A stretch of DNA of 14,503 nt, taken from a virus (taxonomy: Duplodnaviria; Heunggongvirae; Uroviricota; Caudoviricetes; Crassvirales). The notes beneath the pieces are model-generated. The model had not been told where the DNA came from. It worked only from the letters and a program-made list of their open reading frames with translations, and did not search any database. A program made the translations under genes and the position numbers. Location of the stretch: the IMG/VR virus record IMGVR_UViG_3300031952_000007, positions 1 through 14,503 of that record. One strand, written 5' to 3'. Below are positions 4,915 to 9,559 of this stretch, in pieces (within the stretch, counting starts at the first letter, position 1; every line of letters starts with the position of its first letter).

Positions 4915-5792
4915 TTAATCAATATTGCAAGCACCACCAGCACATGCAGCAACTTGACCAAAATCCACTGTATCATCAAGTTCTATCACTTTAGTAAGAT
5001 CAATAGATTTTAAAAGACTAATCTTATTATTATATTGTTCTTCTGTGATGTCCTCGAAAGGAGCTTGTAAATAACTGCCTCCAAAATGGGGGAGCACTGA
5101 CAAACCATTGTACACCTCCCTATTGCTCCACATCCAATCTCCCACTTCTTTCCAACCATCTTGTAGAATAGAAATTGTAGCAGATACATTATGTGTATTA
5201 TCACCTTTTACATGTCCTGCATTGATCCATTCTGTAGAAAATCTTTTAACACGCTCTAATGTATCAAGTGCTGATTCAGATCTAAGAATTGATCCTTCTG
5301 GAGCTTTAACAGGGATTCTAACACACACAGTATCTTTTGGACGCAAAACATCATCTTCACATAGTTCAGGATGATTTACCATTAGATAACTAGCAATGTC
5401 TTCATTCTTATTAAAACGCATAGTTCTAAGATAATAATCATTATGCCATGCATGAATACCACTAGCTGTACCTAATACAAGACTTGTAGTACCTGAAGGT
5501 TTAATACAAGTGATTCTAGCAGCTTCATTAGTTCCTATCTTTTCAGAAATCATACTATTAACAACCTTAGCTGTATTAGCAGCAATCTCAAGATTGTATT
5601 TCAAGATTTCTCCTGAACCAATACCTGTCATTCCTATTCCTAATAAAGCATCTTTTTGTGTTGTCTTAGCCCAGATTGGTCTTAAGTAATGAAAGTTTGT
5701 AAATCCTGACTGTAATGTTCCAAAGAATGAAGCAATTGCCACTCTATCATTAAGATCTTCCTGACATGTGACATCTGACACATTCACTTCAC
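4915..5792 (-). CDS. nrdJ: nrdJ exon 3 (C-terminal part)
   Basis: Begins GT GAA GTG AAT right after the intron omega-G (5793); TCIKPSGTTSLVLG, HNVSAT, C-terminal redox pair CAGGAC. Confidence 0.92.
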
Positions 5793-8537
5793 CATATGTT
5801 CAATTAAGCACGTTACCTCTTAATCAGAATCCTTTGGAATATTTTTATTAACCCAATCTGCAAATTTTATCATTTCAGAATTATTAGCACAACTTTTCAT
5901 CATATTTGCTAAATGACTTATAACTCTTACATTAGTTTTAGTATAGCCCCCTTTTGCATCTATCCTATCTAATGCTGGAGAATTATTTTGTCCTCCTGAA
6001 ATTCCTGTTTTGCAAATTAATTCTAAACCTAAAACTGGGCAATATTTTGGTATAATAATATCTTTTACAGTTAAATCAAAATCTAAACCTTTTAATTTAG
6101 CTCGACCTTTTGCTCTTTGTAACATTTTTGATTCAGGATCTGTACATTTTACTCGTTCTGAATTACATTTATTACAAAGAGTTACTGTTTTTGAGGTTTT
6201 TAAGAACATTGTGCCACAATTAGTACATTCTCGTTCTGTCTCAGATATTTTATAACCTTCTCGATTTACTCTCATAATTTTGTATTTTTACAAAGTTACA
6301 AAACTTATTCGAGATTTCCAAATTTTCATCAATATATTTCTATATTGTTCAGACTATATCATCACCCTTTTCAGGGGCTCTGTGCTTCCACTCACTTGAG
6401 TGTACGTCTTTCGACTAGTCGTTGAACCTTCCTATTTCTAGGCTCGGCTGCTGATTGTCTTCACCATTATGTGGTCAGAGTTTCCAGCAATTCTCAGAGT
6501 TTTAAATCTCCACAAAGTTTAGAGATTACAGAATTGATATGGACGTAAACCAATCTCACAACAAGGATTTGTACCCCAATCTTTATTATTGGTCCAATAG
6601 ATTCCTGGTTCACCACTTCCTGAAGCTTCAATTCTTTTCCACAAGTCCATGAATTCTTTTTCTCCAAATTGTCCTCTCTCAAGAACAGCAGAATTATTAC
6701 TTCTACCTCTCTGCTCATTCAGTTCCCACCAATTACCATATTTACATGTAATCATTTCTTCATCATCATGACTAAATAAAGAAATCATAGCACTTCTACG
6801 AATACCACCAGCCAATACACTATTAGCTATGTGACAAAGGATATCGTGGCATTCTAATGGACTTAATTGCTCTCCTTCATGCTTTCTATCAAGAACTGCT
6901 TGAACGTGCGTTAAACACAGTTTAAGAGGCTCTGGACCAGGTGCTTTACCACCAGCTGTAACTAGTCTTGCTCCTTTTTCACGAACAGCTCTAAAATCAA
7001 AGCTAGGAAGAAAAGAACCTTCCAAATAAGCTTTCATTAACACTTTAACAGCATCAGCCCATCCCATAATAGAATCTTCTACAAGATAGTTTCTCTTCTT
7101 AGATGGTTTCTTGATAGCAGGTAATTGTGCAACATGATGTTTCTGTACAGAAAATCCTACCAAATGTTATCCTAAAGGCTCTTTATCCTTTAGTTCTACA
7201 GTTTTATATATATCTGTAGGTCGGACTATATCATCACATATTTCTATGTGTCGGATGTTCGTGGAAAGATTATATTCTTATTTCTAAGTTTCACTTTCTA
7301 GTCTCTGAACTCGCATTAGTCATTTAAACTAATGATAAGCTGCTGATTGTCTGCTTCACTACAGATTTTCCAGCAATTTATCCGATTTTAAACGGGCATA
7401 GGATTTGATAATTTTGTTTAAATACTTTCCCATTTTGTAAATATCTACGTATTTGTGTAATAGATGTTTTTAAATACTCTGCTAAACTTTTATAAGATTC
7501 AAATTCTAGTTTTTCTAAAGTTTCTATATTAAAAAGAATTACTTTTTTATTTAAACAACTCATGTCTTTTTTTAAGACATAGACATTTGGATTTTCTCCA
7601 TAAGTTATTTGATAATTTTTCCATCTTTTAACTTTTTTTGAAAGAACTTTTTCTAAACTAGAATAAGGAATTTCTAATTGTTTTGAACATTGACTAAGAG
7701 ATTTAAACGAATTAATAAAATTTCCTTTTAAATCAAAAACAGAAATAGCAGTTTCTCTTGTGGGTTTAATTTGTCCACTTTTATACTTATTTTTTAAAGT
7801 ATTGCTTATTTTTTGTTTCTGTTCAATTGTAATAATTTTATTAACACTTCCTTCACCCCTATCATCAAGATTTACTAAATCAAAACCAAACTTTAAGCAT
7901 TTAGATATTAATTCTTGTTCGTATAAATGAGACTCTTTCCACCCCCTTATTTTATTAAATAAAATTATTTTTGGAATAAGTCCTTTTTTTAACAAATTTT
8001 GAATCCAACAATCCTTATGGTTATTTTTAAATTTTGATTTACTAAGATGTCCGTTCAACCTAGTACTCAAAGAACATTTTGTTCTTCCTATATATCTAAT
8101 TTTATGAGATATAGGATCTATTAATACGTAAATTTTAACTTCCATAATAAATGTTTTTACAAATATATGGAAAAGATTTTAAACTACCAAATTTATTTTT
8201 GTTTACCCGTTCCTCCAAGAAGCAAGAACATTGTTTCAGAGAAGCTATGTAAGCTATCTATTGGTAGGAAACAACAGTTGTAAATTCTAGCATTATTCAC
8301 TTCTGCAGCACTTCCTGCAAATTGTAATGCTCTCATAGAAGGCAACACCTTCTTCTCTCTAATCATCTTAGCACTCTTAACTATGCCCTCTTCTAAAGAG
8401 GGATATTTCTTGATCATCATGTTTTGATAGCGATCAACTATCTCATCCCAATTTTCTCTTCTTTTCTCTTGAGGTAAATACTTTGCATACTTACTAAAAA
8501 TTGTAATTTTACTTAATGCCTCTAGTCCTAAATCCAT
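4915..8537 (-). CDS. nrdJ: Class II (adenosylcobalamin-dependent) ribonucleotide reductase, monomeric RTPR type; spliced join(8537-8205,7160-6521,5792-4915), 616 aa
   Basis: Splicing restores LLLGGTG|VGFSV and FCNL|CEVN in frame (333+640+878=1851 nt). Motifs: PSMR, YNCCF, AGGIRRSAMISL, TNPCCEI..RPYQFCNL, KPSGTTS, C-terminal CAGGAC. Confidence 0.93.
5820..6275 (-). CDS. Intron-encoded His-Me-finger (HNH-superfamily, DR..GY..N type) putative homing endonuclease
   Basis: Lies wholly inside intron 2; N-terminal CTNC/CNKC zinc ribbon; core SPALDRIDAKGGYTKTNVRVISHLANMMK. Confidence 0.8.
   Translation of the reverse strand: MRVNREGYKISETERECTNCGTMFLKTSKTVTLCNKCNSERVKCTDPESKMLQRAKGRAKLKGLDFDLTVKDIIIPKYCPVLGLELICKTGISGGQNNSPALDRIDAKGGYTKTNVRVISHLANMMKSCANNSEMIKFADWVNKNIPKDSD
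6291..6322 (-). promoter_or_regulatory. Intron-internal promoter for the intron 2 endonuclease
   Basis: TTTG (6322-6319)-N20-TAACTTTG (6298-6291), 15 nt before the ATG at 6275. Confidence 0.8.
6521..7160 (-). CDS. nrdJ: nrdJ exon 2 (active-site region)
   Basis: VGFSVQKHH...LVTAGGKAPGPEPL...AGGIRRSAMISLF...SGSGEPG...TNPCCEI...FCNL; carries the thiyl-radical NPC cysteine and the CNL cysteine. Confidence 0.92.
7378..8145 (-). CDS. Intron-encoded GIY-YIG homing endonuclease with NUMOD-type C-terminal DNA-binding repeats
   Basis: KIYVLIDP...RYIGRT...RLNGH...LYEQELI...LVN catalytic pattern; EQKQKISNTLK (NUMOD3-like); two HTH-like repeats (ISVFDLKGNFINSFKSLSQCSKQL; LFNIETLEKLEFESYKSLAEYL); visibly more AT-rich than the flanks. 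Confidence 0.9.
   Translation of the reverse strand: MEVKIYVLIDPISHKIRYIGRTKCSLSTRLNGHLSKSKFKNNHKDCWIQNLLKKGLIPKIILFNKIRGWKESHLYEQELISKCLKFGFDLVNLDDRGEGSVNKIITIEQKQKISNTLKNKYKSGQIKPTRETAISVFDLKGNFINSFKSLSQCSKQLEIPYSSLEKVLSKKVKRWKNYQITYGENPNVYVLKKDMSCLNKKVILFNIETLEKLEFESYKSLAEYLKTSITQIRRYLQNGKVFKQNYQILCPFKIG
8160..8191 (-). promoter_or_regulatory. Intron-internal promoter for the GIY-YIG gene
   Basis: TTTG (8191-8188)-N20-TATATTTG (8167-8160), 14 nt before the ATG at 8145. Confidence 0.8.
8205..8537 (-). CDS. nrdJ: nrdJ exon 1
   Basis: MDLGLEALSKITIFSKYAKY...RRENWDEIVDR...VLPSMRALQFAG...IYNCCF...LLLGGTG; start at ATG 8537 (the ORF-track extension to 8606 runs through the promoter/terminator). 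Confidence 0.92.
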
Positions 8538-8558
8538 AAATGTTTTGTTTTGTGTTTG

Positions 8559-8607
8559 TAAAAAATAAGGGGATGCGAATTTAACACATCCCCTTGTAAA
8601 AACCAAA
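8559..8607 (-). promoter_or_regulatory. Terminator hairpin with the nrdJ promoter embedded in it
   Basis: 11-bp stem AAGGGGAUGUG-UUAAAUU-CGCAUCCCCUU (8595-8567) then AUUUUUU; overlapping TTTG (8607-8604)-N20-TAAATTCG (8583-8576). Confidence 0.75.
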
Positions 8608-8621
8608 TTATTTGAACATTA

Positions 8622-8873
8622 TTAATTAACTAATTTCCTTATAATTATTCCTAGTTCAGTATCATTTGGATGCTTGTTAACCAATGTTGTTATTTCCTTT
8701 TCTAAAACCATTAACTTCTGTAAATACAGGGTAGCATCCATCAATTCCTCCTGCAAATGCTTTAAATAATTGTCTTTATTGTTTGTTTCAAGTGTTGTAC
8801 CATATTTAGTAATCCCCACTTGACTTCTATCTAAATACTTTCCAATAACATCTTCTACTATTTGATCTCTCAT
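8622..8873 (-). CDS. Small all-alpha protein, possibly MazG-like nucleotide pyrophosphatase
   Basis: RSQVGITKYGTTL...YLKHLQEELMDATLY with an EExxD acidic cluster; a common phage family; activity is inference. Confidence 0.5.
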   Translation of the reverse strand: MRDQIVEDVIGKYLDRSQVGITKYGTTLETNNKDNYLKHLQEELMDATLYLQKLMVLEKEITTLVNKHPNDTELGIIIRKLVN

Positions 8874-8875
8874 GA

Positions 8876-9559
8876 TTACGTTGTTTTAATTACAAATCCT
8901 GTTTCATCCTTTTTTGCTTGTCCTTTAGCTCTAAGACCAATTACATGTCCTTTTGGATCTAAGAATCTAACATCGCTGCTATCACCATCATATACAGGAA
9001 ATCCTTTCCATTCAATAGGTAGGTCTTTCCCTTTCTTAGTGTCAAAAACTACAGCTACATTTGTTCCAAGATTCAAAGCTATTTCACATTCAGCTTCATT
9101 TTGCTCATTCTTACTAAATGTAATATGATAGTTCTTTGGCATTTCTTTCTCTAACCTATTTAACACTTTCGTATAGTCATAGAACTGTACATCAGAAAAT
9201 TCATCCATAAGACCAAATCTTGTCCATTCAATATCAGAAGTTCCATTAAGCCTTATAGCTGGAATCATATCGTTCTTCTTAGCTTTTCTAATAATGAACT
9301 TTATATCTTGTTTCAAGAGATGCAAGAAAGCATCTCTCTTCTCAAAGAAAAGTTTTGTTCTTTCTATTCTAGCTTTTTGCACTGTACTGAAAGCACCATG
9401 TCCTGCTGTATATAAGCAAGACTTGGTACATCCTTCAGATCTTCTTGGACAAACTTCATATCCAGATATAGCAGCAGGAGCTAATGATAGTATTCCTGTG
9501 AGCACTCCAAGCTCTTCTCCTTTCTCTGTTTTATAATTGCTTGTTGATAGTAGATACAT
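8876..9559 (-). CDS. GP88-like phage protein (Cys-triad, possible Fe-S enzyme)
   Basis: LSLAPA...VCPRRSEGCTKSCLYTAG, AIRLNGTSDI, FYDYTK, NVAVVF, DGDSSDVRFLDP, GLRAKG: pattern recalled for the gene product 88 family. Confidence 0.7.
   Translation of the reverse strand: MYLLSTSNYKTEKGEELGVLTGILSLAPAAISGYEVCPRRSEGCTKSCLYTAGHGAFSTVQKARIERTKLFFEKRDAFLHLLKQDIKFIIRKAKKNDMIPAIRLNGTSDIEWTRFGLMDEFSDVQFYDYTKVLNRLEKEMPKNYHITFSKNEQNEAECEIALNLGTNVAVVFDTKKGKDLPIEWKGFPVYDGDSSDVRFLDPKGHVIGLRAKGQAKKDETGFVIKTT

What the first reader, a model, noticed from the sequence alone, without database searches (positions are those of the whole stretch)
4915..8537. B12-dependent ribonucleotide reductase split into three exons by two self-splicing, endonuclease-carrying group I introns
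Seen: precise U|...G junctions restore GGTG|VGFSV and CNL|CEVN. Each exon holds essential cysteines (YNCC in exon 1; NPC and CNL in exon 2; CAGGAC in exon 3), so both splicing events are needed for activity. Automatic annotation would report three fragments or a pseudogene. Established: phage group I introns are classically described in class I/III RNRs (T4 nrdB and nrdD, Twort nrdE). Two introns in a class II nrdJ, with endonucleases from two different superfamilies, is less familiar to me; novelty needs a literature check.
Basis: partly seen in the sequence, partly recalled or inferred. Interest (0 to 1): 0.75.

Follow-up and report, generated by a model that had tools for sequence, protein, structure and literature searches.

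The report
Phage nrdJ split by two introns
The vitamin-B12-type ribonucleotide reductase gene of an uncultured crAss-like phage is interrupted by two mobile self-splicing (group I) introns, each carrying its own DNA-cutting enzyme gene; this is well supported but is an ordinary example of a well-known kind of selfish element.

Summary
A minus-strand gene (8537-4915) for an RTPR-type class II ribonucleotide reductase is split into three exons by two group I introns: 8204-7161 (1044 nt) and 6520-5793 (728 nt). Both match Rfam RF00028 above its cut-off. Both have a U.G pair at the 5' splice site, a guide sequence that pairs with both exons (P1 and P10), and a terminal G. Splicing in silico gives a 616-aa protein that aligns without gaps to uninterrupted homologues. 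About 145 of 160 related viral loci carry the empty sites. Homologous introns at the same nucleotide positions in other phages show many compensatory base-pair changes. The intron 2 endonuclease ORF is under purifying selection. Intron 2 carriers are scattered on the nrdJ tree, and the intron is more conserved than its host exons, which points to mobility. Intron 1 carries a GIY-YIG/NUMOD1 endonuclease inside its P1 loop. Intron 2 carries a His-Me-finger (HNH-like) endonuclease after P9. No RNA data exist, so splicing itself is inferred. None of this is new in kind: a class II RNR group I intron is known in Nostoc punctiforme, two introns in one RNR gene are known in phage Twort and Arthrospira, and this scan has already found group I introns in nrdJ on other DNA, including a two-intron phage case.

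The parts
8205..8537 (-). nrdJ exon 1 (111 codons; holds the YNCC motif, whose Cys88 aligns with the NNC motif of RTPR)
   Evidence: colinear with uninterrupted homologues through ...LLLGGTG
7161..8204 (-). Group I intron 1 (1044 nt, phase 0, between codons 111 and 112). An in-frame stop (TAA, 8195-8193) follows three codons after the 5' splice site. The intron ends in G at 7161.
   Evidence: RF00028 56.2 bits over 7448-7203; P1/P10 read; empty site in 80 of 80 clade-1 relatives; homologous introns at the same site in L088 and L120 with compensatory changes
7378..8145 (-). HEG1: 255-aa GIY-YIG homing endonuclease with two NUMOD1 DNA-binding modules. It lies in the loop of P1, and its last codons encode the guide sequence and the 5' strand of P3.
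   Evidence: PF01541 22.6 bits, equal to its cut-off, on residues 1-100; NUMOD1 E 1e-11; TIGR01453 partial match; relatives 58-65% identical at the same place in L088 and L090/L120; G+C 22-26% against 35-40% in the exons
7392..7403 (-). Internal guide sequence of intron 1. UCCUAU (7403-7398) pairs with the first six bases of exon 2, GUAGGA (P10). GCCCGU (7397-7392) pairs with the last six bases of exon 1, ACGGGU (P1), with U8205.G7397 at the splice site.
   Evidence: read; P10 position 3 is A-U, U-A or C-G in the window, L088 and L120
6521..7160 (-). nrdJ exon 2 (213 codons plus 1 nt; holds NPCCEI, whose first Cys aligns with the thiyl-radical Cys of RTPR, and FCNL)
5793..6520 (-). Group I intron 2 (728 nt, phase 1, after the first base of codon 325). 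A UAA stop forms across the 5' splice site (6521-6519). The ribozyme core P1-P9 is 6520-6330, the endonuclease ORF lies 3' of P9, and the intron ends in G at 5793.
   Evidence: RF00028 75.2 bits; seven homologous copies at the same nucleotide; 15 pairs with compensatory changes and 98.6% of cells paired, against 33-43% when slid; core about 80% identical to Staphylococcus phage introns
6505..6518 (-). Internal guide sequence of intron 2. ACUUUGU (6518-6512) pairs with exon 3 GUGAAGU (P10). GGAGAUU (6511-6505) pairs with exon 2 AAUCUCU (P1, with a U.G pair at the splice site).
   Evidence: read; P1 8 bp in all five clade-1 copies; the clade-2 copies L159 and L163 have AACCUUU with GGAGGUU, a compensatory change
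5820..6275 (-). HEG2: 151-aa endonuclease with an N-terminal four-cysteine ribbon and an EndoVII/HNH-like (beta-beta-alpha-metal) C-terminal half
   Evidence: phrog_3322 'endonuclease' E 7e-32, phrog_1035 'endonuclease VII', phrog_3118 'HNH'; more than 260 homologues with no Pfam domain; model pLDDT 78, best fold match PacI HNH 3ldy (E 1.3e-3, probability 1.00); dN/dS 0.13-0.26
4915..5792 (-). nrdJ exon 3 (2 nt plus 291 codons plus stop; holds the C-terminal CAGGAC redox pair)

Best explanation
This is one functional gene for a monomeric, adenosylcobalamin-dependent (RTPR-type, class II) ribonucleotide reductase of a crAss-like phage. Two independent mobile group I introns have invaded it. After transcription each intron folds into its ribozyme. 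The guide sequence pairs with the end of the upstream exon (P1, with a U.G wobble at the cut site). A free guanosine attacks the 5' splice site. The guide then aligns the downstream exon (P10), and the exons are ligated after the intron's terminal G. That restores an uninterrupted 616-codon message. Both splicing events are needed, because the essential cysteines are spread over all three exons. Stop codons at or just after each 5' splice site halt ribosomes before they enter the ribozyme. Each intron also encodes a site-specific DNA endonuclease: a GIY-YIG/NUMOD1 enzyme in intron 1 and a His-Me finger enzyme in intron 2. During co-infection these would cut intronless nrdJ alleles of related phages, and repair from the intron-bearing copy would copy in the intron plus some flanking exon (homing). 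Shown here: the anatomy, the conserved folds, the empty sites, selection on HEG2, and the patchy distribution. Inferred: actual splicing, endonuclease activity and specificity, and B12 use.
For: (1) RF00028 hits at 75.2 and 56.2 bits, E 6e-18 and 3e-12. (2) Exact in-silico splice to a 616-aa ORF that aligns without gaps to uninterrupted homologues. (3) P1 with a U.G pair, a contiguous P10, and a terminal G for both introns. (4) Empty sites: 75 of 80 clade-1 loci are continuous across both sites and none has a site-1 insertion; 72 of 80 clade-2 loci are continuous. (5) Intron 2 fold: 15 pairs kept through changes on both sides in P1, P3, P6, P7.1, P8 and P9; 98.6% of cells paired against 33-43% when slid and at most 90.5% when shuffled. 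Intron 1 fold: 12 of 21 P4-P6 pairs compensatory, and P10 tracks the wobble base of its own exon in three copies. (6) All five clade-1 intron 2 carriers share the exon sequence TGYAATCTCT (T or C at the third base), so the seven bases AATCTCT that pair in P1 are identical, while intronless alleles vary at wobble positions there. The window has ACG where nearly all relatives have ACA, which gives the C-G pair that P1 of intron 1 needs. (7) HEG2 is intact in all full-length copies, with dN/dS 0.13-0.26. HEG1 is intact in three diverged copies. (8) Mobility: carriers are scattered on the nrdJ tree, with at least 4 changes forced, and L070(+) and L058(-) are sister alleles. Introns are 86-91% identical against 72-79% for their exons, and 6 of the 24 bases flanking the site differ between L070 and L058 against about 3% elsewhere. 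(9) This is not an assembly artefact. Contigs from another sample and study are identical to the window across most of both introns, including three of the four exon-intron boundaries, and a contig about 4% diverged from a third study runs continuously through both introns. (10) RTPR identity: TIGR02505 is the best family for all three exons, and the profile matches 1L1L at E 5e-60 with all motifs aligned.
Against: No RNA evidence exists: no public RNA run holds this sequence. Splicing, its efficiency and the endonuclease activities are therefore untested. The summed TIGR02505 score lies below that family's trusted cut-off, as it also does for the uninterrupted homologue (261 against 340 bits), so this is a diverged RTPR-like clade and B12 dependence is inferred by homology. 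In HEG2 the histidine expected from EndoVII/HNH motifs is Arg or Lys (D-R/K-I-D), and the fold match is of modest strength (TM about 0.4), so its catalytic mechanism is uncertain. In intron 1 the two P1 strands are 807 nt apart, and ribosomes translating HEG1 would cover the guide, which could make splicing inefficient. How the distant 3' splice site of intron 2 is docked is only predicted.
Confidence: 0.9

Rival explanations
1. The introns are real but one or both no longer splice, or splice too poorly. In that case nrdJ in this phage is a decaying pseudogene that is tolerated because the host supplies deoxynucleotides.
For: No RNA data. Intron 1 needs a very long-range P1 (807-nt loop), and its guide lies inside a translated ORF. 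RF00028 scores intron 1 only just above its cut-off (56.2 against 50 bits).
Against: All three exons are intact, in frame and about 80-84% identical in protein to uninterrupted relatives, with every catalytic motif kept. The exon bases that pair in P1 and P10 are exactly those the guides need. The same two-intron allele persists in a copy about 4% diverged with no indels over 5057-9000. The ribozyme helices keep pairing through compensatory changes.
Confidence: 0.06
2. The gene is 'fractured' by free-standing endonuclease genes, as Aeromonas phage Aeh1 nrdA is split by mobE. On this view the three pieces are translated separately and assemble as a protein complex without RNA splicing.
For: Such arrangements exist in phage RNR genes (PMC3653736; PMC2677866). 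Each exon is followed by a stop codon.
Against: Exons 2 and 3 have no start codon or ribosome-binding context at their beginnings, and exon 3 begins in the middle of a codon (T|GT). Complete ribozyme cores with P1/P10 guides flank the endonuclease genes.
Confidence: 0.02
3. The arrangement is a metagenomic assembly chimera that joins an intronless nrdJ with intron sequences from other phages.
For: Related introns occur elsewhere in this genome and in related phages, and repeats of that kind can mislead assemblers.
Against: Contigs from a different sample and study match with zero differences across 5173-6585, 7062-7466 and 7425-8357, which covers three of the four exon-intron boundaries. A 22-kb contig from a third study, about 4% diverged, spans 5057-9000 continuously.
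Confidence: 0.01

Closest known systems
[quoted passage not shown] 2002, as summarised in PMC3653736)
   Same: A phage RNR catalytic-subunit gene split into three exons by two phage-type group I introns inserted next to conserved, functionally important residues, with an HNH-type intron endonuclease. The intron 2 core here is about 80% identical over about 160 nt to introns of Staphylococcus phages.
   Different: The host gene here is class II (RTPR-type nrdJ), not class Ib nrdE. Both introns carry endonuclease genes, from two superfamilies. The host is a crAss-like phage from sediment and freshwater samples. Self-splicing is shown for Twort and only inferred here.
Phage T4 td / nrdB / nrdD (sunY) introns with I-TevI, I-TevIII and I-TevII
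   Same: The same kind of element: introns with the extra P7.1/P7.2 hairpins, a stop codon in frame soon after the 5' splice site, and a looped-out endonuclease ORF. HEG1 has the modular GIY-YIG plus DNA-binding-module design of I-TevI. As I recall for the T4 nrdD intron, the intron 2 ORF lies 3' of P9.
   Different: HEG1 sits in the P1 loop rather than in P6, and it overlaps the guide sequence. The host gene class differs. HEG2 belongs to an unannotated family in which the usual HNH histidine is Arg or Lys.
Group I intron in the class II RNR gene of Nostoc punctiforme (Meng, Zhang and Liu 2007; described as class II in PMC2853384)
   Same: A group I intron interrupting a B12-dependent RNR gene. 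This shows that class II genes are known targets.
   Different: That case is bacterial, has a single intron and carries an insertion sequence rather than a homing endonuclease. I could not read the paper (not held), so the insertion sites were not compared.
Intron-rich crAss-like phages (Yutin et al. 2021, PMC7886860)
   Same: This genome is crAss-like and has further group I introns. The paper reports dense group I introns and inteins in the Delta and Zeta groups, found through their endonuclease domains.
   Different: The paper names MCP, PolB, primase, ATP_43b and TerL as hosts. In the passages I read it does not name RNR. Its genomes come from the human gut, whereas this phage is found in sediment and freshwater metagenomes.

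Membership tests
Group I intron (Rfam RF00028) | Covariance-model match at or above the curated gathering score | tested here: met
   75.2 bits (intron 2) and 56.2 bits (intron 1) against a cut-off of 50. The related copies L042 and L070 also match. The site-1 relative L088 does not, even at E below 0.1.
Group I intron (Rfam RF00028) | P1 helix between the 5' exon end and an internal guide sequence, with a U.G wobble at the 5' splice site | tested here: met
   Intron 1: ACGGGU with GCCCGU. Intron 2: AAUCUCU with GGAGAUU. Both have a terminal U.G. The pairing is kept through compensatory change in clade-2 copies.
Group I intron (Rfam RF00028) | Terminal G at the 3' end and a P10 pairing of the guide with the 3' exon | tested here: met
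   Both introns end in G (7161, 5793). P10 is UCCUAU with GUAGGA and ACUUUGU with GUGAAGU. In both introns P10 covaries with the exon across copies.
Group I intron (Rfam RF00028) | Conserved P3-P9 core maintained by base-pair covariation | tested here: met
   Intron 2: 15 compensatory pairs, 98.6% of cells paired, with controls far lower. Intron 1: 12 of 21 pairs in P4-P6. P3, P8 and P9 of intron 1 were judged by eye only.
Group I intron (Rfam RF00028) | Guanosine-dependent self-splicing of the transcript | not testable with these tools
   No RNA run holds the sequence. This needs in vitro transcription or RT-PCR.
Subgroup IA (phage-type) group I introns | Extra hairpins P7.1 and P7.2 between the 5' strand of P7 and the 3' strand of P3 | tested here: met
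   Intron 2: two hairpins at alignment columns 119-128 and 132-145, between GACUAG and the 3' strand of P3. Intron 1: read by eye (AAGUGAAACUU and AAGAAUAUAAUCUU). No subgroup-specific model was available.
Class II ribonucleotide reductase, monomeric RTPR type (TIGR02505; structure 1L1L) | Full-length homology to RTPR, with that family as the best match | tested here: inconclusive
   TIGR02505 is the top family for all three exons (34, 97 and 86 bits), but the total is below the 340-bit cut-off, and the uninterrupted homologue reaches only 261 bits. The profile matches 1L1L at E 5e-60 over nearly the whole length. I read this as a diverged phage clade of the RTPR type.
Class II ribonucleotide reductase, monomeric RTPR type (TIGR02505; structure 1L1L) | Thiyl-radical Cys in NPC(G/C)E, the active-site redox Cys pair, and the C-terminal CxGGxC pair | tested here: met
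   C88, C311, C322 and C608/C613 are invariant in the family alignment. They align to the NNC, NPCGEI, PCNL and CEGGAC motifs of 1L1L. The RTPR residue numbers (C119, C408, C419, C731/C736) are from my memory of the literature.
Class II ribonucleotide reductase, monomeric RTPR type (TIGR02505; structure 1L1L) | Adenosylcobalamin as radical generator | not testable with these tools
   Inferred from homology only. PF21995 (B12-dependent RNR insertion domain) matches weakly, at 19.3 against 27 bits.
GIY-YIG homing endonucleases (I-TevI-like) | N-terminal GIY-YIG catalytic domain joined to a separate DNA-binding module | tested here: met
   PF01541 scores 22.6 bits, exactly its cut-off, on residues 5-53. 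Two NUMOD1 modules match at E 1e-11. TIGR01453 'group I intron endonuclease' gives a partial match of 45 against 56 bits. The motifs KIY...RYIG...RLNGH are visible.
His-Me finger (HNH / EndoVII) nucleases | Beta-beta-alpha-metal fold with a catalytic His and a metal-binding Asn or His | tested here: inconclusive
   PHROG families annotated endonuclease, endonuclease VII and HNH match at E 7e-32 to 2e-9. The best fold match is PacI HNH 3ldy (E 1.3e-3, probability 1.00, TM about 0.4), with Gme-HNH and Hpy99I weaker. No Pfam HNH model matches, and the position of the canonical His is Arg or Lys.

The most novel reading that the evidence does not exclude
In intron 1 and its relatives the endonuclease ORF fills the P1 loop. 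Its last codons are the guide sequence itself, and in L088 and L120 also P3 to P5. A ribosome finishing HEG1 would therefore physically prevent P1 and P10 from forming. Each transcript could then either make endonuclease or be spliced into nrdJ mRNA, giving a built-in switch between homing and host-gene expression. More broadly, this phage RTPR family would be a hot spot with at least four distinct intron sites clustered on catalytic residues and served by four different endonuclease lineages.
Probability: 0.3. Interest if true: 0.5.

Novelty: new member of a known kind. Interest (0 to 1): 0.3.

Why it matters
Practically, the gene is a single working RNR gene that gene callers will report as three fragments plus two 'hypothetical' ORFs. 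Its closest deposited homologues are already mislabelled 'recombinase' or 'hypothetical protein', so correct annotation depends on recognising the introns. Biologically, it adds an RTPR-type phage nrdJ to the list of RNR genes targeted by mobile introns. It also gives a good natural data set: about 160 related loci with empty and filled sites, and at least four insertion points at or beside catalytic residues. That set could be used to study homing-site choice, co-conversion and intron turnover among environmental crAss-like phages. It does not change any concept.

Tried and rejected
- Rfam boundaries: the RF00028 alignments place the model's P1 in exon 2 (intron 2) or inside HEG1 (intron 1), and the model's terminal G of intron 2 falls at 6330. 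I rejected these as splice sites in favour of homologue colinearity plus P1/P10.
- Rfam on the L088 introns: no match even at E below 0.1, although P7 and the guide are visible by eye.
- PDB sequence searches for HEG1 (no hit) and HEG2 (only zinc-ribbon noise) were uninformative.
- Pfam gave nothing for the HEG2 nuclease half.
- Papers by Meng et al. 2007 and Landthaler et al. 2002 are not held, so their exact insertion sites were not compared with sites 1 and 2.
- A whole-length automatic alignment of the three site-1 introns failed downstream of P7.1 because of large insertions. Only P4-P6 was counted formally.
- An apparent one-base offset of the clade-2 site-2 introns was considered and rejected. 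P1 pairing (AACCUUU with GGAGGUU) and the reading frame put them at the same nucleotide.
- P0078 looked like a fourth insertion site. It turned out to be an HEG2-family ORF fused to a remnant RTPR tail behind a different, complete RNR gene.
- The ORF-closing helix of intron 2 is only an RNAduplex prediction. It is consistent in the four full clade-1 copies but unclear in clade 2.


Full report
WHAT IS THERE. The window is the first 14.5 kb of a 103.6-kb IMG/VR virus record. That record carries the crAss muzzle-protein family above its cut-off (PF25731), so it is a crAss-like phage. Contigs matching it come from sediment, lake and other freshwater metagenomes. The finding lies in a minus-strand block of DNA-metabolism genes: PhoH, dUTPase, RecA, DUF5522, then the gene in question, then GP88.

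Read on the minus strand, the gene has this layout. Exon 1 is 8537-8205. Intron 1 is 8204-7161 (1044 nt). Exon 2 is 7160-6521. Intron 2 is 6520-5793 (728 nt). Exon 3 is 5792-4915.

Joining the exons gives 1851 nt: a 616-aa ORF plus its terminal stop, with no internal stop. It aligns without a gap at either junction to uninterrupted proteins of three cultured phages, at 56-58% identity.

Much closer relatives exist. Of 80 viral loci 83-89% identical over exon 2, about 75 carry one continuous gene across both sites. Four are broken at exactly site 2. None is broken at site 1.

A second clade, about 60% identical in protein, shows 72 of 80 continuous (a further locus has only a small frameshift). 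Three have an insertion at site 2. Two have one inside the codon of the radical cysteine. Two loci with identical sequence (L094 and L095, the L088/L089 contigs) have site 1 plus a site immediately before that codon.

The arrangement is not an assembly artefact. Contigs from another sample and study are identical to the window across most of both introns, including three of the four exon-intron boundaries. A 22-kb contig from a third study, about 4% diverged, runs through both introns without indels. Contigs of a roughly 90% identical relative that lacks intron 1 occur in two further samples.

THE HOST GENE. All three exons have TIGR02505 (adenosylcobalamin-dependent ribonucleoside-triphosphate reductase) as their best family. 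Exon 2 alone finds the L. leichmannii RTPR structure 1L1L. A profile of ten uninterrupted relatives matches 1L1L at E 5e-60 over nearly its full length.

In that alignment YNC(88), NPC(311)CEI, FC(322)NL and the C-terminal CAGGAC align with the NNC, NPCGEI, PCNL and CEGGAC motifs of RTPR. From my memory of the RTPR literature these are C119, C408 (the thiyl radical), C419 and C731/C736.

Site 1 falls in the conserved GGTG|VGFSV motif. Site 2 falls three residues after the second active-site cysteine. The scores stay below the family's trusted cut-off even for uninterrupted members. This is therefore a diverged phage clade of the RTPR type, and B12 use is inferred rather than shown.

THE INTRONS. 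RF00028 matches both introns above its gathering score, at 75.2 and 56.2 bits. The model does not define the splice sites; the following evidence does.

Intron 2. The last seven exon bases, AAUCUCU, pair with GGAGAUU eleven bases into the intron, with a U.G pair at the cut. The bases just upstream, ACUUUGU, pair with the start of exon 3. The intron ends in G.

Seven further copies at the same nucleotide, in two nrdJ clades, allow a real test of the fold. Fifteen pairs in P1, P3, P6, P7.1, P8 and P9 are kept through changes on both sides. In all, 98.6% of cells are paired, against 33-43% when the 3' partners are slid and at most 90.5% in column shuffles.

P1 changes to AACCUUU with GGAGGUU in the clade-2 copies L159 and L163. 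P10 tracks an A/G difference in exon 3 among clade-1 copies. The two hairpins between P7 and P3' mark the intron as subgroup IA, the usual phage type. Its core is about 80% identical to introns of Staphylococcus phages.

Intron 1. The exon end ACGGGU pairs with GCCCGU at 7397-7392. The adjoining UCCUAU pairs with the first six bases of exon 2, and the intron ends in G. The two P1 strands are 807 nt apart, because the whole endonuclease ORF lies in the P1 loop.

Two diverged copies at the same site, in L088 and in the contig split between L090 and L120, keep the same P1. Opposite the wobble base of the first exon-2 codon they give three different Watson-Crick pairs in P10: A-U, U-A and C-G. Twelve of 21 pairs in P4-P6 are compensatory.

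The window's exon has ACG where nearly all relatives have ACA, which is what P1 requires. Stops follow both 5' splice sites: three codons into intron 1, and spanning the junction of intron 2. This is a known feature of phage group I introns (PMC3984707).

THE ENDONUCLEASES. HEG1 (255 aa) has a GIY-YIG domain scoring exactly at the Pfam cut-off when its first 100 residues are scanned alone. It also has two NUMOD1 modules and a partial match to the 'group I intron endonuclease' model. Its G+C content is 22-26%, against 35-40% in the exons. Its last eight codons and its stop cover the guide sequence and the 5' strand of P3. In L088 and L120 the ORF runs on through P4-P5. Overlap of such ORFs with the ribozyme core is a recognised arrangement (PMC3984707, figure 2 legend).

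HEG2 (151 aa) belongs to a family of more than 260 metagenomic proteins with no Pfam domain. PHROG families labelled endonuclease, endonuclease VII and HNH match it. An AlphaFold model (pLDDT 78) is closest to the small HNH restriction enzyme PacI, with other beta-beta-alpha-metal enzymes further down the list. The family has Arg or Lys where EndoVII has its first His, so I call it His-Me-finger-like and leave the chemistry open. Between copies its dN/dS is 0.13-0.26.

MOBILITY. On a tree of the first 972 nt of nrdJ, the five intron 2 carriers need five changes, and at least four are forced by well-supported branches. L070 (with intron) and L058 (without) are sister alleles. Intron copies are 86-91% identical, while the exons hosting them are 72-79% identical. 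L070 and L058 differ at 6 of the 24 bases flanking the site, against about 3% further away. These patterns fit repeated homing with co-conversion of exon flanks. Selection for P1/P10 pairing would contribute to the last pattern too.

WHAT IS NOT SHOWN. No RNA data exist. Splicing, endonuclease activity and specificity are inferences from anatomy and conservation. The docking of the distant 3' splice site of intron 2 rests on a predicted helix that closes off the ORF. That helix is reproducible in the four full clade-1 copies but not clearly in clade 2.

COMPARISON AND NOVELTY. Intervening sequences in RNR genes are classical. RNRdb had curated over 100 group I introns by 2009. A 2013 survey of cultured phages found split nrdJ only in phiYS40 and P60, neither split by introns. 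[quoted passage not shown] Twort nrdE has two and Brochothrix A9 nrdE has three. crAss-like phages with many group I introns are described, though RNR is not among the named hosts in the passages I read.

I found no paper describing group I introns in a phage RTPR-type nrdJ. Within this scan, however, group I introns in nrdJ have been found repeatedly on other DNA, including another phage with two introns carrying different endonuclease families. These are unchecked AI notes, but they agree with what I see in L088.

This is therefore a clean, well-supported new member of a known kind. The mildly unusual points are the endonuclease ORF inside the P1 loop overlapping the guide sequence, and the clustering of at least four insertion points on catalytic residues across this phage nrdJ family.

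Noticed in passing
L088:2094-5738 (IMGVR_UViG_3300010348_001730; L089 has the same sequence): Another phage's nrdJ also has two intervening sequences: the homologue of intron 1 at site 1, and a second one directly before the radical-cysteine codon (GTNP|CCEI) that carries a 226-aa LAGLIDADG-like ORF. RF00028 finds neither, even at E below 0.1, although the guide, the P7 sequence and a terminal G are visible.
   Followed up: partly
L161:5080-5990 and L164:5080-6030: A further intron site lies one base later, inside the radical-cysteine codon (CCG T|...G|GT TGT). It carries a 252-263-aa GIY-YIG-type ORF unrelated to HEG1. Across the phage nrdJ family at least four insertion points cluster on catalytic residues.
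   Followed up: partly
L174:1751-4037 (Logan contig, protein P0078): An HEG2-family ORF ends in frame with about 28 residues of an RTPR-type NrdJ C-terminus (...DLTKVVEFGDNTNFTQEAACAGGQCAVN). It sits just behind a different, complete RNR gene of 586 aa with its own cysteine tail. This looks like the footprint of an RNR gene replacement that left the endonuclease and the old 3' end behind.
   Followed up: partly
L120:791-1045 (with L090, contig IMGVR_UViG_3300012003_000002): The third copy of the site-1 intron has an extra insertion of about 250 nt after P7.1 that holds a small ORF of about 75 aa. The contig's two ends overlap within the endonuclease gene, which suggests a circular or terminally redundant genome.
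   Followed up: no
window 5823-6275 (HEG2) and alignment A3: In this endonuclease family of more than 260 members, the position of the first EndoVII/HNH histidine is Arg or Lys (ALD-R/K-ID), while D103, Y111, N115 and N124 are invariant. From memory, PacI (the best fold match) is thought to use a tyrosine to start cleavage, so the invariant Tyr may be worth testing.
   Followed up: no
G000:C1:32201-32429 and 28346-28519 (outside the window): The same genome has at least two more RF00028 matches (95.8 bits and 39.9 bits). Earlier notes of this scan place them in a tmRNA gene and a helicase gene.
   Followed up: no
L004, L005, L006 (Mel-JY01, VPs20, PD0307): The closest deposited uninterrupted homologues of this RNR are annotated 'hypothetical protein' or 'recombinase' in GenBank, so this phage RTPR clade is mislabelled in public records.
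   Followed up: no
window 7161-7235 against crAssphage records: The 3' end of intron 1 (P7' to P9.1) is 77-86% identical to short unannotated or 'intron-encoded HNH endonuclease'-adjacent stretches in Carjivirus communis and other gut crAss-like phages, and about 77% identical to Clostridium perfringens phages. This hints at a shared intron lineage across very different phage groups.
   Followed up: no
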